Virus genome (UHGV): UHGV-1812412
DNA: 13,700 nucleotides
From: a virus
Strand: one strand, 5' to 3'
Below, piece by piece: positions 1-12,212 of this stretch. Numbering within the stretch: the first letter of the stretch is position 1; the number at the start of each line of letters is the position of its first letter. Made by a program: the position numbers and the translations under genes. The notes below the pieces were generated by a model that saw only the letters and a list, made by a program, of their open reading frames with translations, had not been told where the DNA came from and searched no databases.

Positions 1-660
1 AAGGCTAAAGAGTTCGGCATGACCGGATCAGAGGTTGGCGAGCTTATCGGGAAACTGGTAGTCGGCTTAGCTGGTCTGAAAGTTATTACTACACTGCTTT
101 CCCCTCTAACCGGATTTGTTTCACTTGTCACCCAACTGATTTCTCTGATAGGCAAGATTCCAGGTCTGGGCAATCTCGTTAAGGGTGCTGGCGGGGCAGT
201 CGCTGGAAGCCCAACAACAGCATTAGCCGCTGGCAGTGCCGCAGGTGTGGGTGTTGGTGTCGCTGGCGCACTGGGCGCTAAGACGGTAGGCGAGAAGTTC
301 AGAGGATGGATGCAAAGCAAGGCTGATCAGTTCGGGGAGTGGGCTAAATCTAAAGGCCTGCTTAGCGATGAACAGGACGCTATGACCAAACCGGGGGCCT
401 ATAACCATAGCTACATCAACAAGGGGGCTTCCTTTAATCCATATCCAACCATTAGCCCGTCACGTCCTACTCCTAGCACTGGTACGGCTATTCAGAATGG
501 TGGCTATCAACCTGCTCAGGTTAATGTGGTGCCTCAAGGTGAGATTTCCGGCAAATGGGAGATAACTATTGATGAGGGGGGAATTGCCAGGGTGATCCAG
601 AAGGAAGTCAGCGATCAGTTGGATTGGAAAGCCACACAGGAATCTAACCAGCTTTTCTAA
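1..660 (+). CDS. Partial CDS (5' end outside window): C-terminal part of a phage tail tape-measure-like protein
   Basis: Frame 1 is open from position 1 (AAG GCT AAA GAG TTC GGC precede the first ATG at 19), stop TAA at 658-660. Product has two hydrophobic helices followed by a Gly/Ala-rich segment (GAGGAVAGSPTTALAAGSAAGVGVGVAGALGA), a pattern typical of tape measure C-terminal regions. Assignment is by composition only. Confidence 0.45.
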   Translation, partial: KAKEFGMTGSEVGELIGKLVVGLAGLKVITTLLSPLTGFVSLVTQLISLIGKIPGLGNLVKGAGGAVAGSPTTALAAGSAAGVGVGVAGALGAKTVGEKFRGWMQSKADQFGEWAKSKGLLSDEQDAMTKPGAYNHSYINKGASFNPYPTISPSRPTPSTGTAIQNGGYQPAQVNVVPQGEISGKWEITIDEGGIARVIQKEVSDQLDWKATQESNQLF

Positions 661-768
661 TGTCCACTCTGTGGATTTGAGTTCTACTCAAACCTGCATA
701 GCAGGCACTAATATTGTGATCTAAATCAATAAGTTAGCCTGACCGGATAAACTCCAGGCAAGAAAAAA

Positions 769-793
769 GCCCCTAAGTGTTAACAAAGGGGCT
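769..793 (-). terminator. Hairpin terminator oriented for minus-strand transcripts
   Basis: GCCCC (769-773) pairs with GGGGC (788-792) around a 14-nt loop; an A-tract at 762-768 on the + strand gives a U-tract after the hairpin on the - strand. Lies about 435 nt downstream of the last minus-strand gene. Confidence 0.45.
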
Positions 794-824
794 CTTCTCC
801 GGTATCCTTTTGATGCGGGGCAAA

Positions 825-870
825 ACCTGCTAACAAAAATCAACCTCTCGCGAGACTAATGTTAGCAGGT
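825..870. repeat. Perfect 11-bp inverted repeat (ACCTGCTAACA / TGTTAGCAGGT) with a 24-nt spacer that contains the palindrome TCTCGCGAGA
   Basis: Read directly: 825-835 is the exact reverse complement of 860-870; nested palindrome at 845-854. Confidence 0.7.
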
Positions 871-1227
871 TGCCGGAAGGTAAGTCAACTCCGGCCTATA
901 AACCTTAAAGCGACTATAAAATCGCCCCGCCAATTGTGATGATCCGACCTTTGAGGCGGGTCCGGTGCCCAGGGGGTGCAGTGATGCACAAACCAGGCAA
1001 CGATAAACAGGCTAACAGTGATAGCGGCGCTCAATCAGCGCACTAAATCCTAACCAGTCCGGGAAAGAGGCTGGCTCTATCGACCGCTCATGCACGGGAC
1101 AATGCATACCTGATAAAGGATTCTCACAAGGGACCAATCGCGAGAAAAGAAGTGGAAAGGGGCTGATTTGTGGTGTATCACTACGGCCTCAAAAGAACAC
1201 TATTGTCTTTTTTAAGCCGGACCGTGA

Positions 1228-1686
1228 TTAGCCTCTCCCCACATTTGACCAATATTTGATTGCACCGATCAAATCATCATAGTGGCGCATGGCATCATTG
1301 AAGCCTTTATAGCTTGCCCATTGTGGGGAAACCTTGTTATTGCTGAATTGCCCACTAATCAGGATAGTCTCCAAAATGTCGGCGTATCGCTTGCCAATTC
1401 GCTTTCTGACGGCCTCAGAGCTCCCACCCTTTACGATTGCATTAATCAGGGCTTTTGTGTGTCTCAGGCTCTCATAGAGCATTGCAGCGTGGGCAGATTC
1501 CATAAAGGAGCGCTTAGGCAGATCACCCCACCCCTCAGAATGAATTGCTGCCAGTGTGGCGTAATTCAGGCCGCTATAGTGCTTTCCGTCATCCCAGCCA
1601 ACCGCTACACCTTCCATCTGTGAGAGCTCTTTATGCAGCTTATCCATCATGCGCTTGTCTATGGTGCAACGGACTTTCGGACTCAT
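1228..1686 (-). CDS. Hypothetical phage-associated protein, 152 aa
   Basis: Intact ORF; its ATG (1686..1684) overlaps the stop of the upstream gene in an ATGA arrangement (translational coupling); GGAGA 7 nt upstream. No family recognised. Confidence 0.55.
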   Translation of the reverse strand: MSPKVRCTIDKRMMDKLHKELSQMEGVAVGWDDGKHYSGLNYATLAAIHSEGWGDLPKRSFMESAHAAMLYESLRHTKALINAIVKGGSSEAVRKRIGKRYADILETILISGQFSNNKVSPQWASYKGFNDAMRHYDDLIGAIKYWSNVGRG

Positions 1687-2513
1687 TTGTTGATCTCCGT
1701 GATGTCATCGAGCAACATGTTGGCCTTATCAATCATCGTTTCGTGGAACTCATTCGACACAACAGACTTATCACCTGCGGCAATCTTTCCAGCAGCCTCT
1801 CCCTGTGCATATTCCCCGCGATGCTTAGCCCTGGTTGATTTCGTAGCAGCGTTGCCAGCGTTGCTACCCTCTTTAGCACTATTAACAGCACCCTTTTGCT
1901 GTGTTTTATTCACCTTCTTACTGTTAGTGAAAACTCCGGCATTTTCGACCATCTTCACCTTGAAGGTGCGGAATTCTTCAAAAGTGCAATCAATAGTGAT
2001 GCAGTCACCAGAGGAAGAGCTACGCTTAACTTCACATTTCGTCATGATGAAGTTCTCAAGGAGTCCGGCATCTTCACTTACCAGGCTAACAAGCTGGCGC
2101 TTGTCTCTCATTTCTATAAGTGCCTGAACAGCGGCGGCAGGGCGCATAGATTCACGGGGATTATCTGGATCAGTGTTCCGGTCGATGTAGTTCTCTTTCC
2201 GGATGATATGAGGGGAAGAGGTAATAATGCCCGTAAAGCTGACAGATTTATCTTTAATGACGGCATGGTCTGACATGGTGGTGCCATCCTCGACCGCATA
2301 GCTCGATTTCTCAACAGGGAACGAATAGCTGACATCAGAGATAGAGTCAAAGAAGATAGCCACATTATCGGTATAGTTGAAGCCATCCATTATATTTTTG
2401 TTTTGTGAATATCCCCCACACATAACAGTGAATGCAGGAGATCTCGACTCAGCTTGTTTTGCAGCTGTCAGAGCATCACTAGCCATAGTAAACATGCCTC
2501 CAAATTGGTCCAC
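1683..2513 (-). CDS. Hypothetical protein, 276 aa, with a Lys/Ala/Gly-rich low-complexity C-terminal region
   Basis: Intact ORF coupled to the downstream gene. The first ATG at 2513 has no usable Shine-Dalgarno; an in-frame ATG at 2486 has GGAGG 10 nt upstream and may be the true start. No family recognised. Confidence 0.55.
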   Translation of the reverse strand: MDQFGGMFTMASDALTAAKQAESRSPAFTVMCGGYSQNKNIMDGFNYTDNVAIFFDSISDVSYSFPVEKSSYAVEDGTTMSDHAVIKDKSVSFTGIITSSPHIIRKENYIDRNTDPDNPRESMRPAAAVQALIEMRDKRQLVSLVSEDAGLLENFIMTKCEVKRSSSSGDCITIDCTFEEFRTFKVKMVENAGVFTNSKKVNKTQQKGAVNSAKEGSNAGNAATKSTRAKHRGEYAQGEAAGKIAAGDKSVVSNEFHETMIDKANMLLDDITEINK

Positions 2514-2645
2514 TTCATGGATTTGGCTAAAGCCAAACCTGCAAAAGATGCAGGCAAAATAGAACTTATCGTTGCCCTGCTTAAAATCTGCAGAAAATAC
2601 AGGGCAGTTATTCGTTAGAATCGCTTATAGCTCTTCCCGAGAGCG

Positions 2646-2897
2646 TTATTTTGCAAAACGGTTATGGGCATTCAGGGCTTTTTTGCGGTCCTGGGCTTGT
2701 TTGCGTGCAATAAAATGTTCGAAAGTCTCGGCCCAGGTGCATTTATTATATTCACGGTACTTATGCATAGCCTGGCGGCTAACGTCATAGCAGGCGGCAA
2801 ATGTGGAGATACGCAGAAATTCCGGCAGATCCTCGTCATCGATATGGATAATATCAAAAGGCACGTCGTCACGGTCGCCGTATAAAACAATTTTCAT
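2646..2897 (-). CDS. Small protein, 83 aa, possible helix-turn-helix DNA-binding protein
   Basis: ORF track starts at a GTG at 2906; the in-frame ATG at 2897 has GAGGTG 6 nt upstream. Segment ISTFAACYDVSRQAMHKY resembles an HTH. Function not established. Confidence 0.5.
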   Translation of the reverse strand: MKIVLYGDRDDVPFDIIHIDDEDLPEFLRISTFAACYDVSRQAMHKYREYNKCTWAETFEHFIARKQAQDRKKALNAHNRFAK

Positions 2898-2931
2898 AAA
2901 AGACACCTCAAAAACTTAAGACGGGGATAAT

Positions 2932-2980
2932 AAAAAAGGGAAGAGGGAAAGACCTATCCCCGATCTCTCACCTCTTCCCT
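2932..2980 (-). terminator. Rho-independent terminator immediately downstream of the capsid-like gene
   Basis: 9-bp stem GGGAAGAGG (2938-2946) / CCTCTTCCC (2971-2979) with a 24-nt loop; A6 at 2932-2937 on + gives a U-tract after the hairpin on the - strand. T-rich on the + side too (2980-2994), so possibly bidirectional. Confidence 0.6.
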
Positions 2981-3010
2981 TTGCTTTTATTTGGCCTTCG
3001 AAGAAGGACC

Positions 3011-4054
3011 TTATTTAGCCTTGGCTTTTGCCAGAGCAGCGGCGGCGGAGTTACTAACACTCACTTTAACCACAACCTCAGGCATCATGTTCATGAAAGC
3101 ATAAGAGGATTCAATGAAGATTTCTCGTTTACCTCTGGACTCTTCCATATACATGAAAGCTTCACGTGCAGCGCCGTTTGCAAGCTTCAGGTTGCGAGCG
3201 CAAGGGCCGAAAAATTGAGTATAAACGCCCACCATATCGCCTAACGCATGTGGCTGGAATTGTGGGACCAGATAAGCAGTATTCTCTGGCAGACTATCCA
3301 TTTGCACCACACGCAGAGCTAAGCCCGGAATGCGGAAGGTCGGGAAGCCCGGCAGAATATCCTCAGGGAACATCAGACCTTTATCGGTAATATTCTGATT
3401 GCCGAACAACAGCACTTTACGGAGCAGTTCATCAGTCTGAATAGCGGCGAACACCTCAGCACGGCAGAACAGGGTGAAACCACGCAGAGCGCGAACGACA
3501 CCACGCTGTTTAACCTTGCTCAGTGCAACCAGGTCCTGCAGTTGTTTGAGAATATCTTGAGCTAGATCCATTTCAGAGGTGGACTGTTCCACGCCCAGCA
3601 GTTCGCACACATTCAGCTCTTTACCCTTGGTGAGGATAATTTTGTTCTCAAAGAGAGCAAGCTGGCGTGCTTCTTCGTGGGTCTGGCGTAAGCCTTCGCC
3701 CAGTTGAATAACACGACGAGCGGTTACAGACTCTAAATTCTCTTCGGAATCTTTGCCCGGAACACGGATACCTTGCCAGTCAGAAGGATAAATAGCACTT
3801 GATGCGGCAGTGAATGCCATATCACCCGTGCCCGTTTCACGCTCATCTGCGGTAATGGTCGCCATCTGTTCACCGTAGCGCGGATACTGACCGAAAGCGG
3901 TTTGTTTCACCTGGCGAACTTTGTCATATTCAAATTTAAAGGTATTGCACAGAGCAGTAGTGTTGAAGATATCCATTGCTGAAATAATCTGGTTATCCAG
4001 CGGGATGTCTTTAATCAAGCCACACAGATCGCGGACTTCGAATTCTTTTTTCAT
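3011..4054 (-). CDS. Putative phage major capsid protein (lambda gpE-like), 347 aa
   Basis: Long ORF; ATG at 4054 with GGAGG 6 nt upstream (ORF track begins at a TTG at 4060). N-terminal MDIFNTTALCNTFKFEYD and C-terminal IESSYAFMNMMPEVVVKVSV resemble lambda gpE (TTAQLL...KFKFD; MIQSAPLMLLADPDEFVSV) as recalled from memory, not search-verified. Followed by a strong terminator, as expected for a highly expressed capsid gene. Confidence 0.55.
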   Translation of the reverse strand: MKKEFEVRDLCGLIKDIPLDNQIISAMDIFNTTALCNTFKFEYDKVRQVKQTAFGQYPRYGEQMATITADERETGTGDMAFTAASSAIYPSDWQGIRVPGKDSEENLESVTARRVIQLGEGLRQTHEEARQLALFENKIILTKGKELNVCELLGVEQSTSEMDLAQDILKQLQDLVALSKVKQRGVVRALRGFTLFCRAEVFAAIQTDELLRKVLLFGNQNITDKGLMFPEDILPGFPTFRIPGLALRVVQMDSLPENTAYLVPQFQPHALGDMVGVYTQFFGPCARNLKLANGAAREAFMYMEESRGKREIFIESSYAFMNMMPEVVVKVSVSNSAAAALAKAKAK

Positions 4055-4065
4055 CTCCAACCTCC

Positions 4066-4401
4066 TTATTGTGCAACACGCAAATCGCCATTGCTGGCAG
4101 CGATAACAGCGGCTAAGCCTTCTTTATCCACGTAGGCCGGATTGATATAACAGCCCTTGTTGGCAACAACGATAAAAGCATCACCAACCTCAGCACGTTC
4201 TACAACCAGCAGCGGAGTTTTATCGGTGTGCGTTTCTTTAACGAAGGTCTCAACCTCGCCAGCCTCAGTCACCACAACAACAGTGCCAGCCGGAATCTCA
4301 GCTTTAACTTTGTTTTTAATTTCAACGTCGCGAATACTAAATTGCTCATCTGCGGCGTATGAAATGATGTGTCCGCGTGTGCGGATAGTCATATCTCTCA
4401 T
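4066..4401 (-). CDS. Putative head decoration / capsid accessory protein, 111 aa
   Basis: ORF ends 11 nt before the capsid start; AGGTGA 6 nt upstream of its ATG. Size and position directly upstream of the capsid gene fit a decoration or cement protein. Function is by context only. Confidence 0.45.
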   Translation of the reverse strand: MRDMTIRTRGHIISYAADEQFSIRDVEIKNKVKAEIPAGTVVVVTEAGEVETFVKETHTDKTPLLVVERAEVGDAFIVVANKGCYINPAYVDKEGLAAVIAASNGDLRVAQ

Positions 4402-5215
4402 TTGATCACCTGCGATTTAAATTAACTCCCCTCAAAGAGTTCCGGTATAACCTCTCAAACCACGACGCTCGGGCCGAAAAGTTATGCCGGAAATCTAAAG
4501 GGAAATTGATACAAGGAGAGGGAGATAGCCCCGCACCGTCCAAGCGGGGGCTATTCCATATGGGGAAAACCAACAACAGTTGGCTGATAGTTCACAGTAT
4601 GGGTTACTAGAGAGCACTATCACGAAAGACACTCCCCCGAATCAGTTCAGGCTGCGGTCACATCAGCGGGGAAATACCTTTCGGGATAGCTACCCACACA
4701 GAAAACCCGCAAAAGAAAACTGTGTGGATAACTAGCCCAATAGGAGAATTAATCGACCACTCAACGATGATCAGGGTAGTGTTATTTATAAGGCGGCACC
4801 GCTACCTGGTCGCCTTTACTTTGGAGGAAAATACGGCAAATCAAGATCTTCTCACAATGATATTGACGCCATACTGTATATTATATCAGTATTTACTCAC
4901 ATTGTCAACACCCTGATTATATAAATTCTAATAATTAGCGTAGTAACGGTATTTTCAGACCTCTATCAATCCCATCAATACGTCACCCCACCCTTTAGAT
5001 GCATACATCCGACCTACTTTGTAGGCTTGGCGTACTGCCAAGGTCGCAGCTATGCGACTCCTATCTATCACCACTTTATAAAGCTTGATAGATATCCGTT
5101 GATCAATATCAATGTTTTCCGGGGATTTACCCGGCTATAGTTCGAATCAAGGAAGGGGAGCATTGATAGCACCCAACCGAGCAAACAAATCAACTTCTCG
5201 CAAAAGGTTATAGAT

Positions 5216-5338
5216 ATGGGTATCAAGAACAGTGCCAGCGCATGGCAAAAGGCCAGGTTTCATCACCCACACATGGTTAAGGCAATTGAGGTGGTTGGAG
5301 TTTTAGCCCTGATGTTAGCTCTGTGTGTGGAGGTGTGA
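5216..5338 (+). CDS. Micro-ORF, 40 aa, hydrophobic C-terminus (MGIKNSASAWQKARFHHPHMVKAIEVVGVLALMLALCVEV)
   Basis: ATG preceded by AAAGG 8 nt upstream inside a 17-nt leader motif that is duplicated before the membrane protein gene; its stop is 1 nt before the next ATG. Confidence 0.25.
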   Translation: MGIKNSASAWQKARFHHPHMVKAIEVVGVLALMLALCVEV

Positions 5339-5339
5339 G

Positions 5340-5420
5340 ATGGGCAAAGGAGGCAAAGCATTTTTAATAGGTCTGGCAGTCTTAGATTTTGTATTAATCA
5401 TCATTGAGCGGAGTTTATGA
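5340..5420 (+). CDS. Micro-ORF, 26 aa, single hydrophobic helix (MGKGGKAFLIGLAVLDFVLIIIERSL)
   Basis: ATG at 5340 with GGAGG 6 nt upstream; its stop overlaps the ATG of the following HTH gene (ATGA at 5417-5420). Confidence 0.25.
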   Translation: MGKGGKAFLIGLAVLDFVLIIIERSL

Positions 5421-5677
5421 CGGGAACTAAAGATATTAAGAGACTGAGGGAAGAGCTGATAGCTGAAATTAAAGCGAAGGCAAAGCAAATGGAGATAGCC
5501 GCACAAATGGATGTAGCGGAACAGATGTACAAGATGGTTGAGGAGGGAACGCCACGACAGGTTATAGCAAAAACCTTCGGTGTGGGGATCGCCACCGTGC
5601 ACAGAAGGCTGAAAGCCTATGCCGACTACCACAATATCGAGAGAAAGGAGGATGGGAGATTTAAGAAGAATAAATAG
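5417..5677 (+). CDS. Small DNA-binding protein with resolvase/invertase-type helix-turn-helix, 86 aa
   Basis: Segment TPRQVIAKTFGVGIATVHRRLK matches the pattern of the Hin/Gin-type C-terminal HTH (PRQ-LA-FG-G-ST--R, recalled from memory); N-terminal half predicted coiled coil. No catalytic recombinase domain present. Confidence 0.65.
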   Translation: MTGTKDIKRLREELIAEIKAKAKQMEIAAQMDVAEQMYKMVEEGTPRQVIAKTFGVGIATVHRRLKAYADYHNIERKEDGRFKKNK

Positions 5678-5769
5678 TGTGAACAGTCCAATAGGTTAAG
5701 CTCTGGCTCATAGCCCTCGCCTCGAGGGTGTTATTAACTAAATTCAACTTCTCGCAAAGGGGTACCATT

Positions 5770-6291
5770 ATGTTATTTCAGAAAGATAAAGAATCAGAAA
5801 ACAAAAAGCTTTTTAAAGCAATAGTAAAAATGTTCTTTCAGTACACTGCAGCGTTTTTGATAGCCGGGCCTTGGTTAATGGCTATCTGTTTTTACCCTGC
5901 TACCTTGTTTATTGGCAGTAGCAAGTTCGGCGATGGCCCGTTTCATGTGGATATTGGTTTTATAGATTCTCTCCTGATCCGTCCTATAAATGCTGTTCTC
6001 AATGCTTTCTACTTCCCCACTAGTCTAGAGGGGTGGTCGGTAACCTGGGGTGTTTTAGGCTTAGCATATGTATATTGGTTGGTTGGCTTTTTGTGGGGTG
6101 CAATCTGTGCTCTCCTCGATATTGATACAGGATCAAGCCGTAGGAGTGGTGGTAATAATAGCGGAGCGGGTGTATATGCACACGTAGGTACCAGAGGGGT
6201 AAGTATCACCGCAGGTACCCGATTCGCTGGCGGCTGGCTGAGCATAGGCAAACGCGGCGTTAGTTGGAGAAAAAGCAAAAAACTGTTCTGA
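5770..6291 (+). CDS. Membrane protein, 173 aa from ATG 5770, with at least two hydrophobic helices and a Gly-rich basic tail containing a repeated G-x-R-G-V-S motif
   Basis: ORF track starts at a GTG at 5728; the ATG at 5770 has AAGGGG 7 nt upstream. Hydrophobic helices FFQYTAAFLIAGPWLMAICFYPATLFI and WGVLGLAYVYWLVGFLWGAICALL; tail has GTRGVS and GKRGVS. Terminator directly downstream. Confidence 0.6.
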   Translation: MLFQKDKESENKKLFKAIVKMFFQYTAAFLIAGPWLMAICFYPATLFIGSSKFGDGPFHVDIGFIDSLLIRPINAVLNAFYFPTSLEGWSVTWGVLGLAYVYWLVGFLWGAICALLDIDTGSSRRSGGNNSGAGVYAHVGTRGVSITAGTRFAGGWLSIGKRGVSWRKSKKLF

Positions 6292-6298
6292 CCTACCA

Positions 6299-6322
6299 GG
6301 GGGGCCATCACGGCCCCTTTTT
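6299..6322 (+). terminator. Rho-independent terminator after the membrane protein gene
   Basis: GGGGCC (6301-6306) / GGCCCC (6312-6317) stem with 5-nt loop, followed by TTTTT (6318-6322). Confidence 0.7.
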
Positions 6323-7636
6323 ATTTATCCCTCAATTAACCCCTATTTATCCCCTATTTAATGCCTATTTATTGATTTAATCCGTTTTATGCCACAACCG
6401 CCCGGTTGACAGAGTAAGAGAGAGGGTGTAACCCTTTTTCGTAATACCAATAAAATCAATAGCTTAGCTCAATTGGCCTTTTCTCTGTTTTTGTCAAATT
6501 TAACATACCCTCAAAAACTGCAAAATCTGGCTGCAAGATTATCTGCAGCTGGATTTCTTACACCTCAATTTGTGGTATCACCCTGACTAGTTTGTGCATA
6601 AAATGAACAGTTTTTAACATTTCCTCCTCACCTGGTAACCACACAAAAAGCTAAAAACGAGGCACAGATAATCTTAGAGGCCTGTTTTCTTGTTATCACT
6701 CTGGGAACGTCGTAGAAGTGATTTTGATGAAAGACGGCCTACCCTATTACACCCCCATTTTTTGTTATCACAATTGCATCCTGTGCGGTATATGACTATG
6801 TGCTGAAAGCGGTCTCAGGTGTTGGTGTCAGAAATATCCATTAGCGGTATTTGAGCTTATGGGTAACTCGTCTGAGGTGCCAGGCAGGCGCTCCCCTACC
6901 TCCCCTTTTTCTTCTAACAATTCTCAAATATCACACCACTGCCCACCACGTTGCTATTATGTTAATTCTTAAGCTTTGCTGTATGTTGTGCACATTATTT
7001 ATTCAGATGCATGTACGTAAATTCTGTGCCCACTGATCATGATTTTTAAATCAGATTTTGTAGTGCGCTTTATTAGTGTAGATAAGATCTATTATGTTAA
7101 ATGCAATTTTCCCAACCCTTCAAATCAATGACTTACATGTAAGCATGCACTAACACCCCACACAGCACATTAGACGTGTAGATGTCTATATCCCACATTT
7201 TTGATTGTTTTGTAGTCATTCCCCTGATCATTTAACCAGTATAGTTTGCTCTCTGCAGACCACAAAATCGGAATTTACATCTGATTAACATAATCTGTTA
7301 GCATGATCACCATTACCCACACAACAATAACCCCATGCAAGCCTCTTCAGGCAATTTATCGGCGTGTTGGTGTGAACAGTCTTTCATGTTCTTTATGTAT
7401 TCATGACTGCAAGGAATGTATTCATTGGCCTGTGTGGGGGAAGGATGGACTGCCTCAGGGGCCATACTTATGATGCCCGGTCAACATAGCTGTTGATAAA
7501 ATCAATGGGTGTTGATCTGCGTATTTCCCACACATGAGAGGAAATCAAAGCAAAGAGAGAGGAGAGAGGTTTGTTAGTCAAAATAGGTCAATTGACGGCT
7601 AATACAGAGTAAAAAATCAGATGCAATCACTCCCCC

Positions 7637-7819
7637 ACCTGTTGGGATTTCCCTCACCTGTATAAGAATACAGTCATACTTTCCCGTTATACGGTCATAC
7701 ACATGATGGAATAACCTGTTGGAATTTCCCACAGGTTCAACCATACATAAGCATTAACCTGTTGGAATTTCCTACTACTACCTGTCGGTATTTCCCACAG
7801 GTACCTGTTGGAATTTCCC
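7637..7819. repeat. Iteron array: five direct copies of a 17-mer ACCTGTYGGWATTTCCC
   Basis: Copies at 7637-7653, 7714-7730, 7757-7772, 7780-7796, 7803-7819; the last three are exactly 23 bp apart. Two copies are followed by the inverse ACAGGT. Partial copies of the ATTTCCCACA core at 7522-7534 and 8321-8333. Confidence 0.75.
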
Positions 7820-7911
7820 ACACTAATAGATAAAGAGAATAGATTAATAAAAAGATACCCCCCTAACCCCCCAGGGGGAATGGGGAGGGATCAGAGAGTG
7901 GGGAAGGTTTT

Positions 7912-8014
7912 CTAGATGTACGTAATTGGTACACTTAAAGGTGGATAATATGAGGCTAGATGTACGTAATTGGTACACTTAGAATATTCTAGATGTACGT
8001 AATTGGTACACTTA
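7912..8014. repeat. Three identical 26-bp direct repeats CTAGATGTACGTAATTGGTACACTTA, each with an internal dyad TGTAC-N7-GTACA
   Basis: Copies at 7912-7937, 7956-7981, 7989-8014; start-to-start spacing 44 and 33 bp (multiples of about 11, same helical face). A near DnaA box GGTGGATAA lies at 7940-7948. Confidence 0.8.
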
Positions 8015-8339
8015 AATCACATAAGTTATTGAGTTTATTAGAAAAAGTGATTCACCTATATATACTACTGATTCGCCTCCGCTCATCATTAGTATGGTGT
8101 AACTGATTCATGCTTCGCTTACGCTCACATTCATCTACTTACACCCCCTTATCTGAATTGAACATTCCCGTCCAATCCAGCTAAGAGAATTGATTGAACA
8201 TTACCTAACATCCGTTAGCTAACATTCTAATCAATTAACTACTTAATCACTTCCACACCTTCCGGTGGTGCCAAGTGTCCTGGCATGGTGGGAAAAGATT
8301 CTGCCGTTTTAGGTAGAATTGATTTCCCACAAATAGTAA

Positions 8340-8660
8340 GTGTCGGCCCTTCAATGTCACTCTCCTATGAGGGGGAGAGATGACGGGCCTCCTGTGTGGG
8401 TGAGTATCGGAGCAGTCTGTGAAGTATGAGCAGGCTGTGAGATACGCTACTGTATATCTGCGTAGAACAGCCTCCGCTGTTTACGCTCTTTGTGTGGGTC
8501 CGGCGAATGCGACAGCATGAGGCCCACATGTGGACCGCTGCCGAAAGCTTGCCAGCGCCGGAAGGAGGCGGCAAAGAGTCTCCCGCGCGGTTGTAGGTCC
8601 GCGCCGGACTTTAACTTACAGTTAAACCCTTCGGGCTTGTGCGGGTGCACGCACACATAT
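8340..8660. other. GC-rich, hairpin-dense non-coding island, candidate structured RNA or DNA processing site
   Basis: Sharp rise in GC relative to AT-rich flanks. Local stems include TCTCC/GGAGA (8361-8379), GCGCGG/CCGCGC (8585-8604), TTTAAC/GTTAAA (8609-8625) and GTGCG/CGCAC (8639-8654). The only ORFs are two overlapping Arg/Pro/Ser-rich minus-strand frames without RBS. Confidence 0.3.
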
Positions 8661-8843
8661 ATATAAAGGATACACTCATAAATCGAAAATAAGCGCGATT
8701 TTAGCGCCTACAGCGAGATAAACTATACTCCCTAGTGTAATTGCATTACCTGATGCTTAAATCGCGTTGTAGGGCCTCTCATGAGGTTTGAGTTTAACAC
8801 CCTCCAAAGTTTTAACAAAAAGTGCTCTCCCTCCATTGTGGGC

Positions 8844-9013
8844 CATTGACAATCTTATTGCATAAATGCTATAAGTTATTCTGATTTTGACACGGTAGGG
8901 GCCATTAATAATGCTTACCCCTTTGCTGTGGACTTGCTTGTGTCTGCTGTGCAGGCTATGGCACCTATAGCTCGCCTAAATGATAATGATTCCTATTGAC
9001 AATTGGTTGTCAA
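8844..9013 (+). promoter_or_regulatory. Operator-like 9-bp palindromes ATTGACAAT overlapping -35-like TTGACA hexamers; candidate tandem promoters
   Basis: ATTGACAAT at 8844-8852 and 8995-9003; the second is part of an 18-bp dyad TTGACAA-TTGG-TTGTCAA (8996-9013). Possible promoters: TTGACA 8846-8851 + 18 nt + TATAAG 8870-8875; TTGACA 8996-9001 + 17 nt + TAAGAT 9019-9024. Confidence 0.4.
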
Positions 9014-9059
9014 TATGATAAGATTATAGATAGTGGGAGAAACAGATCCGGAGGTCAAC

Positions 9060-9209
9060 GTGGAACTGAGCGACGCTATAGCGATCATCAACCTGGCTGT
9101 ACTGTGGTGCGGTGTTGCCTACATAGCCGGAGTAACTGCAATCGACAACCTTGAAGAAAAAATGATAGATAAATACAAAAAGATTGTTGACAATCTCGCA
9201 AATAGCTGA
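9060..9209 (+). CDS. Small hydrophobic protein, 49 aa, GTG start
   Basis: GGAGG at 9050-9054, 5 nt before the GTG at 9060; product MELSDAIAIINLAVLWCGVAYIAGVTAIDNLEEKMIDKYKKIVDNLANS has one predicted transmembrane helix. Not in the supplied ORF track (below the length cutoff). Confidence 0.35.
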   Translation: MELSDAIAIINLAVLWCGVAYIAGVTAIDNLEEKMIDKYKKIVDNLANS

Positions 9210-9215
9210 TAAAAT
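9182..9215 (+). promoter_or_regulatory. Sigma70-type promoter with an operator dyad over the -35
   Basis: -35 TTGACA (9187-9192), 17-nt spacer, -10 TAAAAT (9210-9215); dyad GATTGT-TG-ACAATC (9182-9195) overlaps the -35 and shares the TTGACAAT core with the upstream palindromes. Confidence 0.5.
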
Positions 9216-9263
9216 ATAAATCATAGGGTAATTCTCAGCATGTGAATTTTCCTTAAACAGACT

Positions 9264-9295
9264 AGCGGGGCTTGTCTTGAGTCCCGTTTCTTTTT
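9264..9295 (+). terminator. Promoter-proximal hairpin plus U-tract (attenuator or 3' end of a short RNA)
   Basis: CGGGGC (9266-9271) pairs with GTCCCG (9281-9286), with one G-U pair, around a 9-nt loop, followed by TTTCTTTTT (9287-9295). Sits about 50 nt after the predicted start site and 44 nt before the next ATG. Confidence 0.5.
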
Positions 9296-9338
9296 AAACC
9301 TACATCGCACAGGCGGTGAGCCAACAGGAGATTGAATC

Positions 9339-9548
9339 ATGGCTAAAACTGGACCGATCAGCCAGCTGGTAGACTGGACTACTGACGAAATCGTCGAGAA
9401 CGTGCTTAAAGGTAACTTTCGAAAAACTTCTGTTTATGCATTTATTCGAAAACACAAAGGAGAATATCCACACATTGAAGCGGCAATAGAAAAACTTAAC
9501 TTTATTAAACTTGAGCGCCAGCTGGAAAGATATAAACACCTACTTTGA
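9339..9548 (+). CDS. Small protein, 69 aa, possibly DNA-binding
   Basis: AGGAG at 9326-9330, 8 nt before the ATG; first gene after the promoter/attenuator. No family recognised. Confidence 0.6.
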   Translation: MAKTGPISQLVDWTTDEIVENVLKGNFRKTSVYAFIRKHKGEYPHIEAAIEKLNFIKLERQLERYKHLL

Positions 9549-9584
9549 TAAAAGGTAACCGTAACCCGGTAAGAGGTAAACATT

Positions 9585-10454
9585 ATGAATATTAAGTCTG
9601 TTTTTAATATAACTTTAAATGATGATCCTAGTATCCTTTTGCTGCCTATGCTCATAAACAAATCTGGACTATTAAAAAAAGGCGACGCAAGGGATATTTA
9701 TATTTATATGTGGAATATTTACTATCTCAACGCTAAAAAAGAGGCCGCCAAGGTGTTCAGTAAGAAGACTAAAGGAAGAAGCCTCAGTCAGGATATGAAA
9801 GATTCCATAAGAAAAGAATGTTTTGCAATTAATGATAAAGATTCCTGTGTGGAAATCTCTTATAAGGATATAGAGGAAAGAGTAGGAATATTACGACCAC
9901 ACGCAGTAAGGGCAATTAAAAAGCTGGAATCTGAAGGAATTATCACCTGCCTTAAAAAAGGCAATAAGCATAACCCTTATGCATCATGGCAAATTAATGT
10001 CGGAATCTTTGAAATGATGGAAAGAGTAGGGATTGAAAACCTCATTGGGTGGGATCTCTTAAAACCATATTGGAAGAAAGAACAGGAAGCAGCCGGAAGA
10101 GGGGAGGGGGATAAAGCCCCGCAAGAAGCCCCAAAACAGGCCGCACAGCAAGCTAAAAAGGCCGAGGTGGTGCAGTTCCCTTCTACGAAAGATAAGAGCG
10201 TCAGAATCGAGCGTAGCTCTCATCCTGAAAGTGTGACAACGTCACCTGTTAAGACAAACAATGAAGGGCCAGTGAAAGAGATACCCAAAATTATAGACAT
10301 TTCTTCTTTTATGGCAGATGAGGAAGATATGCAAGATGAGTGGTGGACACCTCCAGAAAATAATGATTATGGTTATGATCCTTATGGCTATGATGAAGAT
10401 GAATATAGCCCGTTTGAAGATGAATATATAAATGATTCCGCTATCCCTTATTAA
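9585..10454 (+). CDS. Winged-helix DNA-binding protein, 289 aa, with a Lys/Ala/Gln-rich linker and an acidic, aromatic C-terminal tail; candidate replication initiator or regulator
   Basis: AAGAGGT 7 nt before the ATG. Segment ISYKDIEERVGILRPHAVRAIKKLESEGIITC has the classic winged-helix pattern seen in replication initiators and MarR-like regulators; C-terminus DEEDMQDEWWTPPENNDYGYDPYGYDEDEYSPFEDEY. Function inferred. Confidence 0.75.
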   Translation: MNIKSVFNITLNDDPSILLLPMLINKSGLLKKGDARDIYIYMWNIYYLNAKKEAAKVFSKKTKGRSLSQDMKDSIRKECFAINDKDSCVEISYKDIEERVGILRPHAVRAIKKLESEGIITCLKKGNKHNPYASWQINVGIFEMMERVGIENLIGWDLLKPYWKKEQEAAGRGEGDKAPQEAPKQAAQQAKKAEVVQFPSTKDKSVRIERSSHPESVTTSPVKTNNEGPVKEIPKIIDISSFMADEEDMQDEWWTPPENNDYGYDPYGYDEDEYSPFEDEYINDSAIPY

Positions 10455-10542
10455 TACCCCCAAATAAACTAAATAAACTAAACATAGAATTACTAGAACT
10501 AGATTGATTGCCCTGATCTTTTAAACGTTCGGAGAATTAATC

Positions 10543-11028
10543 ATGTTCAAATCTGATCTTTCTGATTCCCAATTTGAAAAACTGGTAGCACTGCAGAAAT
10601 ATCTCCCCAGTGATGATCAACCAACACGACAGGCCAAACACTTATTAGTCGAGGGCTTTACCCCTGAATTCGTAGCGGAATATACAGGCGTTAAACTTGA
10701 GAAAGTCCAAAAACTATATAATGAGTCCTGGAATCCACGGTGTCGAGTTCCCCTCAGTGTCTATAACGAAATAGATAGAGATAAAAATGTCTTCGAAGAT
10801 CGCCGCCGCAAATCTCTTTTAATGTGGAATTGCGGGATGAATATTGAAGAGATAGCAAAAGAATTAAAAGTAACCTGCTTTCATATTTGGGGCTTGTTGA
10901 GTGAAATCCTGCCACGTAAGGAGCTTAATCAACGTTTGCCTAAGCCCGGTAGTCGTGCTTATCGCGAATTTATATTCATCTACCGCCGCCATAGCAATAA
11001 AGTCCGGAAAGCAATGCAGCGCAAATAG
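10543..11028 (+). CDS. Hypothetical protein, 161 aa, with two HTH-like segments and a basic C-terminus
   Basis: GGAGA 7 nt before the ATG; HTH-like segments FTPEFVAEYTGVKLEKVQKLY and MNIEEIAKELKVTCFHIWGLL. Could be a small terminase subunit-like or regulatory protein; not resolved. Confidence 0.7.
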   Translation: MFKSDLSDSQFEKLVALQKYLPSDDQPTRQAKHLLVEGFTPEFVAEYTGVKLEKVQKLYNESWNPRCRVPLSVYNEIDRDKNVFEDRRRKSLLMWNCGMNIEEIAKELKVTCFHIWGLLSEILPRKELNQRLPKPGSRAYREFIFIYRRHSNKVRKAMQRK

Positions 11029-11116
11029 CTTATAGCCTTCACATATGCCGCAAGTTATTGATTCTGCCGTCCGGTAAATATGCCGGATGGCTCATATAAA
11101 TTTTAAGGAATTCCAA

Positions 11117-11560
11117 ATGTCTCAAATCGCTAAATTACTATCCCAGGTTATCAAAGCTATCGACGCTGAAGATTCAAAAGTTCGCCAGGATCTTTTAGAT
11201 GGCAAGTTTACCAATACTCTGGCATTTACCCGTGACAAAGAGCACTTCTTAGAGCACAAACATCCCGCCTTTGTTGAATGCAAGTCCGCTAATGGTGATG
11301 TTTTCTATGTCGATTTGGTGGTTATGGCTATGCGCCTGTGGATGATTCAGGACCTTATGCGCCAACACGGTGATGATCCTCTTATCAGCATGTGGAACAG
11401 CGCCCAGGATGGCTTTGTGATTGCTGCCTTATCCAAATCCATGATTGAGGCAGAAGGCGCAAGCCTTCAAAACATGGCAGATCTCTTTGAAATAAGCGTA
11501 GGAATGATGCAGACCATGCTGCAGGCGGTGAAGCCTCTCAAGCTGGTTAACCTTGAATAA
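11117..11560 (+). CDS. Hypothetical protein, 147 aa
   Basis: ORF track begins at an ATG at 11087 with no RBS; the in-frame ATG at 11117 has AAGGAA 6 nt upstream. Followed by a terminator. Confidence 0.65.
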   Translation: MSQIAKLLSQVIKAIDAEDSKVRQDLLDGKFTNTLAFTRDKEHFLEHKHPAFVECKSANGDVFYVDLVVMAMRLWMIQDLMRQHGDDPLISMWNSAQDGFVIAALSKSMIEAEGASLQNMADLFEISVGMMQTMLQAVKPLKLVNLE

Positions 11561-11571
11561 TTGATTAATAA

Positions 11572-11606
11572 GCACCCTCAAAAAATGGGGGTGCCTTTAT
11601 TTATCT
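11572..11606 (+). terminator. Rho-independent terminator
   Basis: GCACCC (11572-11577) / GGGTGC (11589-11594) stem followed by the T-rich run CTTTATTTATCTT. Confidence 0.6.
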
Positions 11607-11638
11607 TACTTTTCACGTTTATCTAAAAGGATATGCCT

Positions 11639-12022
11639 ATGAATATTGAAGAAATGATAGTTGAATTCGATGATGGTGATTTCCTGGAAGATGGGGAGTT
11701 TAAATACTCCCGTTTTAAACAGGCGTTATTTAGCAGCGATGATAAACCCCACGTTAGTGATCTAAATGACGATGATTTATGTCGCTGGGTATGCACCCGC
11801 TTATATGAGGATGGAAAATATACAGGCCAAAACTTTCCAAATCTCTATTTCAAAGCACAAACATTTGAGGAAGGGCAAAGAGTGAAAAACCTGGTCGATA
11901 AAATGCTGTCAGCCGGATATTTGCATAAAGAATTATTAAATCCTAAAGCTGAAAGCAAGCGCCATTATATTTTTGTGTGGACTATTGGCGATAAGTGTCC
12001 ACTAAGACGCAAAGGCAAATGA
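11639..12022 (+). CDS. Acidic protein, 127 aa, in the position of a tail assembly chaperone
   Basis: ATG at 11639 has AAGGA 8 nt upstream (the ATG at 11633 is too close to it). Product is strongly acidic at the N-terminus; sits two genes upstream of the tape measure gene, as gpG-like chaperones do. Inferred from position and composition. Confidence 0.55.
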   Translation: MNIEEMIVEFDDGDFLEDGEFKYSRFKQALFSSDDKPHVSDLNDDDLCRWVCTRLYEDGKYTGQNFPNLYFKAQTFEEGQRVKNLVDKMLSAGYLHKELLNPKAESKRHYIFVWTIGDKCPLRRKGK

Positions 12023-12023
12023 T

Positions 12024-12209
12024 ATGAATACCTACGAAAAGATTTATCAAAAATTAAAAAGTGATAACAATGCTCCCGTCATCAAGGGCGGGGCTTCTTC
12101 CTCTGGTGACCTCTCAATCGAAGAGCTTGCGGAGAAATATAATATTGATAAAGAGGCCCTGAAAAGGGCTATTTCATTATCAAAATCTTTAAGACAGGGC
12201 GAGGTGTAA
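12024..12209 (+). CDS. Small protein, 61 aa, immediately upstream of the tape measure gene
   Basis: ATG 1 nt after the stop of the preceding gene (TGA-t-ATG); ends 3 nt before the tape measure ATG. Could be independent or the extension part of a frameshifted chaperone. Confidence 0.45.
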   Translation: MNTYEKIYQKLKSDNNAPVIKGGASSSGDLSIEELAEKYNIDKEALKRAISLSKSLRQGEV

Positions 12210-12212
12210 GAG

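What the first reader, a model, noticed from the sequence alone, without database searches (positions are those of the whole stretch)
5190..5772. Duplicated 17-nt leader motif TCAACTTCTCGCAAA(A)GG in front of two start codons
The same sequence occurs at 5190-5207, before the 40-aa micro-ORF, and at 5744-5760, before the membrane protein ATG. In both it supplies the Shine-Dalgarno region about 10 nt upstream of the ATG. A shared translation-initiation element suggests co-regulation by one RNA-binding factor or small RNA, or a duplicated expression signal.
Basis: seen in the sequence. Interest (0 to 1): 0.45.

Follow-up and report, generated by a model that had tools for sequence, protein, structure and literature searches.

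The report
Leader motif pair matching a candidate small RNA
The two repeated leader motifs are real and conserved, and they are most likely the two docking sites of a previously unannotated small antisense RNA encoded elsewhere on this 13.7-kb phage-like E. coli plasmid; this suggests how the plasmid co-controls a regulator operon and a swappable cargo gene.

Summary
TCAACTTCTCGCAAA occurs at 5190 and 5744, each exactly 26 nt before an ATG (5216, 5770). An exact 15-mer repeat alone is not beyond chance (about 11% of shuffles). However, the 12-nt core TCAACYTCTCGC is kept at both sites in all 32 related E. coli plasmids examined, while the flanks, inserts and even the downstream gene change. 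Every complete plasmid has a third copy, at 840-851 in the window. Read on the minus strand this is GCGAGAGGUUGA, the complement of the other two. It lies about 7 nt after a promoter-like site (TTGACT-18-TGcTAACAT) and about 50 nt before a strong hairpin plus U-tract. In two other lineages this intergenic region is unalignable, yet TTGACT, the seed and a GCCCC/GGGGC-U-tract hairpin persist in the same order. All observed base changes keep pairing (C-G, U-A, U·G). Best explanation (about 0.6): a roughly 45-90-nt trans-acting sRNA pairs at -26 to -15 of both leaders. It co-represses the micro-ORF/HTH operon and the variable envelope-protein cargo gene. There is no expression data, covariation has no statistical power, and a DNA-binding protein site is not excluded. 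No Rfam family matches. I class it as a new member of a known kind.

The parts
5190..5201 (+). Leader motif copy 1 (core TCAACTTCTCGC; extended identity 5187-5207), at -26 to -15 of micro-ORF1. Proposed sRNA target site 1.
   Evidence: The core is invariant in 32 plasmids while the upstream flank varies. It is the best plus-strand duplex partner of the candidate seed, -22.2 kcal/mol.
5744..5755 (+). Leader motif copy 2 (core TCAACTTCTCGC), at -26 to -15 of the cargo gene. Proposed sRNA target site 2 and left boundary of the variable cargo slot.
   Evidence: It is the second-best duplex partner, -20.7 kcal/mol. Variants ACAACCTCTCGC and ACAATCTCTCGC still pair with the seed.
840..851 (-). Third copy of the core (plus strand TCAACCTCTCGC). 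On the minus strand it reads GCGAGAGGUUGA, the proposed 12-nt seed complementary to copies 1 and 2 with one G·U pair.
   Evidence: (three exact matches to CAACYTCTCGC; 0.34 expected even when one mismatch is allowed). Present in every complete family plasmid.
762..852 (-). Candidate trans-acting sRNA, about 90 nt: 5' seed, U-rich stretch, small hairpin, then terminator hairpin (768-793, extended to 800) and a U6 tract (768-763).
   Evidence: The fold has MFE -33.2 kcal/mol and z -2.84, with the seed largely unpaired. Equivalent units in L244 (z -4.55) and L267/L271 (z -3.02) have different bodies. No Rfam family matches.
859..888 (-). Promoter-like site for the candidate sRNA: -35 TTGACT (888-883), an 18-nt spacer, and an extended -10 TGcTAACAT (864-859). 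The predicted start at 852/851 falls at the first base of the seed.
   Evidence: TTGACT recurs 29 nt upstream of the seed in the unalignable L244/L267/L271 versions. The evidence is weak on its own because promoter-like hits are not enriched over shuffles.
824..871 (.). Perfect 12-bp inverted repeat (824-835 and 860-871) bracketing the seed and the -10 element. It could be an operator or, in read-through RNA, a stem that presents the seed in a 24-nt loop.
   Evidence: the arms occur nowhere else in the window. It is absent from the L244-type allele, so it is not essential to the model.
5216..5338 (+). Micro-ORF1: a 40-aa protein with a C-terminal hydrophobic helix, the first cistron of the regulated operon.
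   Evidence: It is 40 aa in all 30 plasmids scored, with 10 protein variants. It is kept as a protein in the lineage whose capsid is 81% identical.
5340..5420 (+). Micro-ORF2 (26 aa, hydrophobic). It starts 1 nt after the micro-ORF1 stop, and its stop overlaps the HTH start (ATGA). It is poorly conserved: 35 aa in some relatives and absent in the L247 lineage.
5417..5677 (+). 86-aa HTH protein (resolvase-type HTH_7), encoded between the two motif copies. It is the presumed regulator whose synthesis depends on translation of the leading micro-ORF.
   Evidence: Pfam HTH_7 at 3.6e-06 and PHROG DNA-binding protein. Homologues occur only in this plasmid family.
5770..6291 (+). Cargo gene (here a 173-aa multi-pass membrane protein) in a slot that holds at least four unrelated envelope proteins in relatives.
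   Evidence: No Pfam or PADLOC family matches.
6298..6320 (+). Intrinsic terminator closing the micro-ORF/HTH/cargo operon.
   Evidence: 9-bp stem with 6 G-C pairs, followed by a T-run.
5136..5141 (+). Conserved TATAGT (TAAAGT in the L247 lineage), a putative -10 of the operon promoter. This places copy 1 about 42-53 nt into the transcript.
   Evidence: Conserved block CCCGGCTATAGTT. The scan tool did not call it, so this is an inference.

Best explanation
The two leader motifs are probably the target sites of one plasmid-encoded trans-acting antisense small RNA. The RNA would be transcribed from the minus strand of the convergent intergenic region between the tape-measure gene and orf152, about 852 to 762 and roughly 90 nt long. 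It would begin with the 12-nt seed GCGAGAGGUUGA and end in an intrinsic terminator. The seed pairs with UCAACUUCUCGC at -26 to -15 of micro-ORF1 (15 bp when the upstream AAA is included) and of the cargo gene, directly next to each Shine-Dalgarno. Both sites lie on one polycistronic mRNA that runs from micro-ORF1 through micro-ORF2 and the HTH gene to the cargo gene, ending at the terminator at 6298-6320. I infer that pairing blocks 30S binding. Because micro-ORF1, micro-ORF2 and the HTH gene are translationally coupled, blocking micro-ORF1 would also lower synthesis of the HTH regulator. The second site would put whatever cargo gene occupies the slot under the same control. Shown here: the three copies, their strand relation, their conservation through sequence turnover, the predicted folds and the duplex energies. 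Inferred: that the RNA is made, that it pairs in vivo, and that it represses rather than activates.
For: (1) CAACYTCTCGC has exactly three perfect matches in the window, at 841, 5191 and 5745. Only 0.34 are expected even when one mismatch is allowed. (2) Every complete family plasmid examined has the same three copies. (3) Minus-strand context in the window: TTGACT-18-TGcTAACAT, then 7 nt, then the seed. The RNA continues into a hairpin plus U6; the fold gives -33.2 kcal/mol, z -2.84, with the seed mostly free. (4) In L244/L245 and in L267/L271 the intergenic region is otherwise unalignable. Even so, TTGACT lies 29 nt upstream of GCGAGAAGUUGA, which abuts a GCCCC...GGGGC hairpin plus U-tract with a completely different loop (folds z -4.55 and -3.02). 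The conserved block therefore runs exactly from the -35 element to the terminator. (5) All base changes seen keep pairing. Position 6 shows U·G, C-G and U-A in different lineages and never C·A. C5 to U in L248 gives G·U. The seed state of the L247 lineage (G) was predicted from its C-bearing target before its sequence was fetched. (6) The region shared by all three copies is exactly the 12-nt duplex, whereas copies 1 and 2 share more because of the SD context. (7) With 16- or 22-nt 5' seeds, the two leaders are the best plus-strand partners in the whole plasmid. (8) Both leaders are less structured than shuffles (z +0.73 and +1.46), so the sites should be accessible. (9) The spacing from motif to ATG is fixed at 25-29 nt in all lineages and across cargo types, which fits a function in translation rather than at the DNA level.
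Against: No transcript data exist for either strand. The -10 element in the L244/L267 type is weak (CACACT) and the scan tool did not call it. Promoter-like hits in the window are no more frequent than in shuffles. The terminators were not flagged by the simple scan because their loops exceed 8 nt; they rest on fold predictions only. The formal covariation test has no power: there are four distinct rows, and 252 of 500 shuffles do as well. In window-type plasmids the third copy lies inside a 450-bp block that is almost invariant throughout, so its conservation there is not specific to the seed. The family is narrow (capsid at least 81% identical, E. coli only), so there are few independent lineages. 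The duplex stops 2-3 nt before the SD, so occlusion of the ribosome is plausible but not guaranteed.
Confidence: 0.6

Rival explanations
1. The 12-mer is a DNA site for a sequence-specific DNA-binding protein. The obvious candidate is the 86-aa resolvase-type HTH protein encoded between copies 1 and 2; a helper-phage or host factor is also possible. Binding at three same-oriented sites would regulate transcription, by roadblock or looping, of the operon, the cargo gene and the convergent intergenic region.
For: An HTH_7 protein is encoded between the two copies. HTH_7 domains of resolvases and invertases read asymmetric half-sites of about 12 bp (own knowledge). All three copies have the same orientation on the plus strand. 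Nothing computed here excludes protein binding.
Against: The motif has no dyad symmetry. Copies 1 and 2 lie in transcribed leaders at a fixed 25-29 nt from the start codons, not at promoters. Copy 2 sits only 33-100 nt after the HTH stop with no promoter-like site. This model does not predict the -35 element, start site and terminator that frame the third copy on the opposite strand in three unalignable versions. It also does not predict the stable T-versus-C difference between the leader copies and the third copy.
Confidence: 0.2
2. The motif acts only in cis on the mRNA, as a pyrimidine-rich translational enhancer or standby site, or as the binding site of an RNA-binding protein. On this view the third copy is unrelated, or acts as a decoy on the plus-strand 3' UTR of the tape-measure operon.
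For: The position is fixed just 5' of the SD in an unstructured leader. The motif is kept in front of unrelated cargo genes. An analogy is the start-associated sequences of Cluster K mycobacteriophages, whose authors proposed a role in translation initiation through an unknown RNA or protein factor (PMC3203893).
Against: It does not explain why a third copy without a conserved start codon is retained through complete turnover of its surroundings. It also does not explain why that copy always lies between a -35-like hexamer and a terminator on the other strand. Only 2 of about 16 genes carry the motif, which is unlike a general enhancer. The local hairpins between motif and SD are weak (-0.8 to -4.2 kcal/mol) and no better than shuffles.
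Confidence: 0.12
3. The repeat has no regulatory function. It would be a chance 15-mer or a recombination scar that marks the junction where cargo cassettes are exchanged, conserved only because the plasmids are closely related.
For: An exact 15-mer repeat arises in about 11% of shuffles, and another 15-mer repeat that is probably chance exists in the window. Most relatives are 92-98% identical. Copy 2 is the left edge of the variable cargo region.
Against: The core stays intact in the L244 and L247 lineages where both flanks are rewritten. No matching repeat marks the right edge of the cargo. No plasmid among the 32 has lost the 445-648-bp segment between the direct repeats. Three exact copies of the 11-mer are far above expectation.
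Confidence: 0.05

Closest known systems
P1/P7 immI system: c4 antisense RNA acting on the icd-ant mRNA
   Same: A phage-plasmid encodes a short trans-acting RNA that represses synthesis of a regulator, the Ant antirepressor (PMC8546580). From my own knowledge (Citron & Schuster 1990/1992; Heinrich et al. 1994, papers not held): c4 pairs with two short repeated target sequences in one mRNA. It blocks the ribosome-binding site of a small leading ORF (icd) whose translation is required for expression of the downstream regulator. That is the same logic as micro-ORF1 leading to the HTH gene here.
   Different: c4 is processed from the same transcript, upstream of its targets. Here the candidate RNA is encoded 4.3 kb away on the opposite strand and has its own promoter-like site. 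There is no sequence or structure match to Rfam C4. The second target here controls a separate, swappable cargo gene.
Satellite phage P4 immunity: CI RNA pairing with seqA and seqC
   Same: A phage satellite that can live as a plasmid uses one small RNA that pairs with two directly repeated complementary sequences in its own operon transcript (PMC4825925).
   Different: P4 CI is cut out of the target transcript itself and causes premature transcription termination. Its targets flank the RNA gene. In this plasmid the targets sit immediately 5' of two Shine-Dalgarno sequences and the RNA gene is elsewhere. There is no sequence similarity.
Hfq-type trans-encoded sRNAs with a 5'-terminal seed (e.g. 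RybB, OmrA/B) and type I toxin-antitoxin pairs with trans sRNAs (tisB/istR-1, zorO/orzO, shoB/ohsC)
   Same: The architecture is seed, then U-rich stretch, then Rho-independent terminator. Complementarity of 12-15 nt lies in the 5' UTR close to the RBS. The first target is a small (40 aa) hydrophobic peptide gene (own knowledge of these systems; features here).
   Different: No family match was found; the ohsC model scores 19.4 bits against a threshold of 50, which is chance level. Type I antitoxin genes lie next to or overlap the toxin gene, unlike here. Toxicity of micro-ORF1 and dependence on Hfq are untested.
Start-associated sequences (SAS) of Cluster K mycobacteriophages
   Same: An asymmetric conserved motif in one orientation lies just upstream of start codons of unrelated genes. 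Its function is unknown, and a role in translation via an RNA or protein factor has been proposed (PMC3203893).
   Different: A SAS is 13 bp, contains the SD itself, lies 3-7 bp from the start codon and occurs 10-20 times per genome. Here the conserved core lies upstream of the SD, 15-26 nt from the ATG, and occurs twice. A complementary partner locus can also be pointed to.

Membership tests
Trans-acting base-pairing sRNA (seed + Rho-independent terminator) | Short independent transcription unit with its own promoter | tested here: inconclusive
   The window has TTGACT-18-TGcTAACAT (9/12 plus TG). The L244/L267 types keep TTGACT at the same distance but have a weak -10, CACACT, which the tool did not call. 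Promoter-like hits are not enriched overall.
Trans-acting base-pairing sRNA (seed + Rho-independent terminator) | 3' GC-rich hairpin followed by a U-tract | tested here: met
   Folds have z -2.84, -4.55 and -3.02, each followed by U5-U6. The stem GCCCC/GGGGC is kept while the loops differ.
Trans-acting base-pairing sRNA (seed + Rho-independent terminator) | Conserved single-stranded seed complementary to target mRNAs near the RBS | tested here: met
   The 12-nt complement pairs with both leaders at -26 to -15. These are the best plus-strand partners in the plasmid. The seed is invariant except for one G/A change that keeps pairing.
Trans-acting base-pairing sRNA (seed + Rho-independent terminator) | Statistically supported compensatory covariation between seed and targets | tested here: inconclusive
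   One pair shows C-G, U-A and U·G, and 95.8% of cells are paired compared with 33-48% when the partners are slid. With only four distinct rows, 252 of 500 shuffles do as well.
Trans-acting base-pairing sRNA (seed + Rho-independent terminator) | The RNA is expressed and regulates the targets (and, for the Hfq class, binds Hfq) | not testable with these tools
   No transcriptome or reporter data are available.
P1/P7 C4 antisense RNA family (Rfam) | Match to the family covariance model | tested here: not met
   No Rfam family reaches its gathering score in the window. No C4 hit appears even at E up to 10 in 650-1250.
P1/P7 C4 antisense RNA family (Rfam) | RNA processed from the same operon transcript, upstream of its targets | tested here: not met
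   The candidate RNA lies 4.3 kb from the targets, on the opposite strand.
Type I toxin-antitoxin system | Small hydrophobic peptide gene repressed by an sRNA | tested here: inconclusive
   Micro-ORF1 is a conserved 40-aa peptide with a C-terminal hydrophobic helix, and its leader carries the target. Toxicity is unknown, and there is no PADLOC or Pfam hit.
Type I toxin-antitoxin system | Antitoxin RNA gene overlapping or adjacent to the toxin gene | tested here: not met
   The candidate RNA gene is 4.3 kb away.
Start-associated sequences (Cluster K mycobacteriophages) | Motif contains the SD, lies 3-7 bp from the start codon and is present in many copies | tested here: not met
   The core ends 15 nt before the ATG and the SD lies outside it. 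Only 2 of about 16 gene starts carry it. The definition comes from PMC3203893.
Promoter (sigma-70 or phage RNA polymerase) | -35/-10 hexamers, or a conserved promoter block, placed so that the downstream ATG is transcribed | tested here: not met
   No promoter-like site was called at either copy. Reading the sequence by eye, any -10-like hexamer would overlap the ATG. The resemblance to T3/T7-class promoters that I recalled did not survive base-by-base comparison (inference, no tool).
Operator of a dimeric HTH repressor | Dyad-symmetric site overlapping a promoter | tested here: not met
   The motif is asymmetric and lies in the transcribed leader. Binding of a monomeric HTH_7 domain is not testable here.

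The most novel reading that the evidence does not exclude
The motif pair and its antisense partner may form the immunity-like switch of an uncharacterised family of 13-kb plasmid-borne phage satellites. These plasmids carry their own capsid, tape-measure, Dit and tail-completion genes but no terminase or portal. In this reading the sRNA keeps the micro-ORF/HTH regulator off. The conserved leader in front of the cargo slot works as a regulatory socket, so that any newly acquired envelope-protein gene is automatically wired into the same RNA control. The 12-bp inverted repeat around the sRNA promoter could be the operator through which the HTH protein feeds back on the sRNA, giving a protein/RNA double-negative switch.
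Probability: 0.25. Interest if true: 0.75.

Novelty: new member of a known kind. Interest (0 to 1): 0.55.

Why it matters
If the model is right, a 12-nt RNA-RNA interaction co-ordinates a regulator operon and a hot-swappable cargo gene. The host element is an unstudied family of small phage-derived E. coli plasmids found in human, cattle, pig, chicken and metagenome samples. That would give a direct experimental handle, through seed and target mutations, on how these elements decide between quiet plasmid maintenance and expression of their phage-like genes. It would also add an unannotated sRNA family to the short list of RNA-based immunity and control systems of phage-plasmids and satellites (P1 c4, P4 CI). 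More generally, it shows that a short repeat in front of start codons can be decoded by looking for its complement beside a terminator elsewhere on the replicon.

Tried and rejected
(1) Exact 15-mer scans of genome contigs and viral contigs returned only single hits scattered over unrelated phyla. None was enterobacterial and none had two copies.

(2) Searches for distant relatives through the HTH protein, the capsid protein, tblastn against plasmids and phages, IMG/VR and JGI metagenomes showed that the family is confined to E. coli, with capsid identity of at least 81%. No deeply diverged members were available for covariation. One protein search was wasted on a 50-aa N-terminal fragment of the tape-measure protein.

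(3) A sigma-70 promoter at the motif was rejected. No site was called, and any -10-like hexamer would overlap the ATG.

(4) A T7/T3-type phage-polymerase promoter was considered because of the A-rich block followed by GGGG. It was rejected after base-by-base comparison from memory, and because the plasmid's tail genes are siphovirus-like.

(5) IHF, CsrA and boxA resemblances were weak and were not pursued.

(6) An intrinsic hairpin between motif and SD, which an sRNA could open to activate translation, was rejected. The hairpins have -0.8 to -4.2 kcal/mol and are no better than shuffles, and the leaders as a whole are less folded than shuffles.

(7) The minus-strand match at 287-301 inside the tape-measure gene (10-nt complement) is not conserved in relatives and is treated as chance.

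(8) A partial fourth copy, TCAACCTCTCCC, at the orf152 stop in some relatives is coding sequence, is variable, and is absent from the window.

(9) Rfam was searched at gathering score and at E up to 10. Only sub-threshold hits driven by the terminator hairpin appeared.

(10) No paper on this plasmid family was found.
Full report
**Observation.** TCAACTTCTCGCAAAAGG lies at 5190-5207 and TCAACTTCTCGCAAAGG at 5744-5760, sharing an exact 15-mer. Each is followed after exactly 26 nt by an ATG. ATG 5216 opens a 40-aa ORF and ATG 5770 opens a 173-aa membrane protein. Length alone does not make the repeat significant. In 300 Markov shuffles, 32 contained an exact direct repeat of at least 15 nt, and the window has another such repeat at 2387/11962. 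The 15-mer scans of the genome and viral collections returned only single hits scattered across unrelated phyla, which is background.

**Context.** The window is a complete circular plasmid of about 13.7 kb. Nine closely related E. coli plasmids (92-98% identical, typed non-mobilizable) are in the public collections, from human, cattle, pig and chicken isolates. There is no match in the phage collection.
- The plasmid carries a major head protein, a Dit-like tail protein, a tail-completion protein, a tape-measure protein and a lambda-O-like replication initiator downstream of iterons.
- Two divergent operons start near 4900. The leftward operon (orf111, capsid, Dit, orf152) sits behind a perfect sigma-70 consensus promoter at 4908-4880.
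- The rightward operon runs micro-ORF1, micro-ORF2, an 86-aa resolvase-type HTH protein and the membrane protein, and ends at a strong terminator at 6298-6320.
- Micro-ORF1, micro-ORF2 and the HTH gene are tightly coupled: GTGTGAGATG at the first junction and ATGA at the second.

**The motif is under selection.** I collected 32 family plasmids from E. coli genomes, public assemblies and metagenomes.
- The 12-nt core TCAACTTCTCGC is invariant at copy 1. At copy 2 it varies only in one lineage (ACAACCTCTCGC, and ACAATCTCTCGC in one plasmid). Most of the 40 upstream columns vary at both sites.
- In the most diverged lineages (L244, and L247-L250 with capsid 81% identical) the flanks are rewritten and lineage-specific hairpin-bearing inserts appear, yet the core persists.
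- The gene after copy 2 differs between plasmids. At least four unrelated envelope proteins occupy this slot, always behind the same leader, and none matches Pfam or PADLOC.
- The distance from motif to ATG stays at 25-29 nt throughout.
- Micro-ORF1 is 40 aa in every plasmid, with ten protein variants, so it is a real gene.
- No other gene start on the plasmid carries the motif.

**A third copy on the other strand.** The refined core CAACYTCTCGC has exactly three perfect matches in the window: 5191, 5745 and 841. Only 0.34 are expected even when one mismatch is allowed.
- The third copy lies in the 570-bp convergent intergenic region between the tape-measure stop (660) and the orf152 stop (1228). 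No conserved start codon follows it.
- Read on the minus strand it is GCGAGAGGUUGA, complementary to both leader cores over 12 nt with one G·U pair. The duplex reaches 15 bp at copy 1.
- On that strand it lies 7 nt downstream of a promoter-like site, TTGACT-18-TGcTAACAT.
- About 50 nt further on comes a long GC-rich hairpin and a U6 tract. The 96-nt RNA folded (758-853) gives -33.2 kcal/mol and z -2.84, with most of the seed unpaired.

**Persistence through sequence turnover.**
- In the L244/L245 lineage the intergenic region is otherwise unalignable. It again contains the core, here the perfect complement GCGAGAAGUUGA.
- There the seed lies 29 nt downstream of TTGACT and directly abuts a GCCCC...GGGGC hairpin followed by UUUUUCUUUU (fold z -4.55).
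- L267 and L271 carry a third version with the same -35 element, seed and stem but a completely different loop and different upstream sequence (fold z -3.02).
- Across three sequence versions, what is retained is the -35 element, the seed at the predicted start, and the terminator. That is the anatomy of a small transcription unit.

**Pairing is kept by every change seen.**
- Window-type plasmids have G in the seed opposite U in both targets.
- The L247 lineage has C in target 2. I predicted that its seed must have G before fetching its full plasmids, and it does.
- L248 has an additional C-to-U change opposite G.
- The L244/L267 types have A in the seed opposite U in both targets. No C·A combination occurs.
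- The formal test has no power. With four distinct rows, 252 of 500 shuffles do as well. Still, 95.8% of cells pair, compared with 33-48% when the partners are slid.
- With 16- or 22-nt 5' seeds, the two leaders are the best plus-strand partners in the plasmid, at -22.2 and -20.7 kcal/mol. Both leaders are less structured than shuffles.

**Mechanism proposed.** A trans-acting sRNA of about 90 nt (45-60 nt in the other alleles) would pair just upstream of the two Shine-Dalgarno sequences of one polycistronic mRNA.
- It would block initiation at micro-ORF1, and through translational coupling lower HTH synthesis. It would also block initiation at the cargo gene.
- Repression is favoured over activation because the local motif-SD hairpins are weak and no better than shuffles.
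- The steps from 'the RNA is made' onwards are inference.

**Rivals.**
- A DNA-binding protein site, with the resolvase-type HTH protein as the obvious candidate, cannot be excluded. It predicts neither the fixed distance to the start codons nor the promoter and terminator framing of the third copy.
- A purely cis-acting translational element leaves the third copy unexplained.
- Chance or a recombination scar is contradicted by conservation through flank turnover.

**Caveats.** In window-type plasmids the third copy sits in a 450-bp block that is almost invariant throughout. The promoter evidence is weak by the tool's own statistics.

**Comparison with known systems.**
- No Rfam family matches, and no paper on this plasmid family was found.
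- The logic is closest to P1 c4, which acts on icd-ant (and own knowledge), and to P4 CI, which pairs with seqA and seqC: one small RNA and two repeated targets in one operon of a phage-plasmid or satellite. In those systems the RNA is cut from the target transcript itself.
- The architecture resembles Hfq-type sRNAs with 5'-terminal seeds. With a 40-aa hydrophobic first target, it also resembles type I toxin-antitoxin pairs that use trans sRNAs, although the gene arrangement differs.
- The mycobacteriophage start-associated sequences resemble the original observation but differ in position, content and copy number.

**Verdict.** The most likely reading is a new, unannotated member of the class of antisense-RNA control systems in phage-derived plasmids.

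Noticed in passing
window 1-13700 (whole): The window is a complete circular plasmid of about 13.7 kb belonging to an E. coli-restricted family. It carries capsid, tape-measure, Dit-like and tail-completion genes and an O-like replication initiator, but no recognisable terminase or portal. It has no relatives in the phage collection. It looks like a plasmid-borne phage satellite or a minimal phage-plasmid, and I found no publication on it.
   Followed up: partly
window 745-1195: A non-coding block of about 450 bp between the tape-measure gene and orf152 is almost invariant among window-type plasmids, although the flanking gene ends vary heavily. The family has at least two unalignable alleles of this region, sharing only short islands such as GATAAACAGGC. 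It may be a packaging (cos/pac) site or a further RNA gene.
   Followed up: partly
window 824-835 and 860-871: A perfect 12-bp inverted repeat (AACCTGCTAACA / TGTTAGCAGGTT) brackets the anti-motif and the -10 of the candidate sRNA promoter. Its arms occur nowhere else in the window, and it is absent from the L244-type allele. It could be an operator or an RNA stem.
   Followed up: partly
window 5770-6291 and the same slot in L230, L231, L246, L248: The gene behind motif copy 2 is a swap hotspot. At least four unrelated envelope proteins occupy it: 173-179 aa multi-pass membrane proteins, 225-236 aa proteins with two TM helices plus a periplasmic domain, a 186-aa signal-peptide form of that same domain, and a 195-aa signal-peptide protein. 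None has a Pfam or PADLOC hit.
   Followed up: partly
window 5695-5729; also L230 and L244 at the same place; 48-nt insert in the copy-1 leader of L001/L230/L242: Different lineages carry different short hairpin-containing insertions between the HTH stop and motif copy 2, and in the leader upstream of copy 1. The window's 35-nt insert is flanked by a GTTA duplication and contains the hairpin CCCTCG..CGAGGG. They may be attenuators or mobile mini-elements.
   Followed up: no
window 6320-8990, iterons 7637-7825 and 7910-8016: A non-coding region of more than 2 kb holds five 23-nt repeats and three 30-nt repeats, upstream of small ORFs and the O-like initiator gene (9585-10454). This is presumably the replication origin and copy-control region.
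   Followed up: no
window 4880-4908 (minus strand) and 5062-5141: A perfect sigma-70 consensus promoter (TTGACA-17-TATAAT preceded by TG) faces the orf111/capsid operon. The divergent region also holds inverted repeats (CTATCTATCA / TGATAGATAT) and the palindrome CCGGGGATTTACCCGG next to a conserved TATAGT. These are likely operators of the lifestyle switch.
   Followed up: no
L235 (NZ_CP043822.1, 39.6 kb): This record is a head-to-tail trimer of the plasmid, with one partly degraded copy. It may be a true multimer or an assembly artefact.
   Followed up: no
window 1046-1082: This 37-nt stretch of the conserved intergenic block matches (94.6%) an unannotated chromosomal site in two cat E. coli genomes (NZ_CP146893.1, NZ_CP146890.1).
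   Followed up: no
window 5340-5420: The second micro-ORF (26 aa, hydrophobic) is poorly conserved. It is 35 aa in L237/L239 and missing in the L247 lineage, unlike micro-ORF1. It may serve only as a translational coupling bridge.
   Followed up: partly
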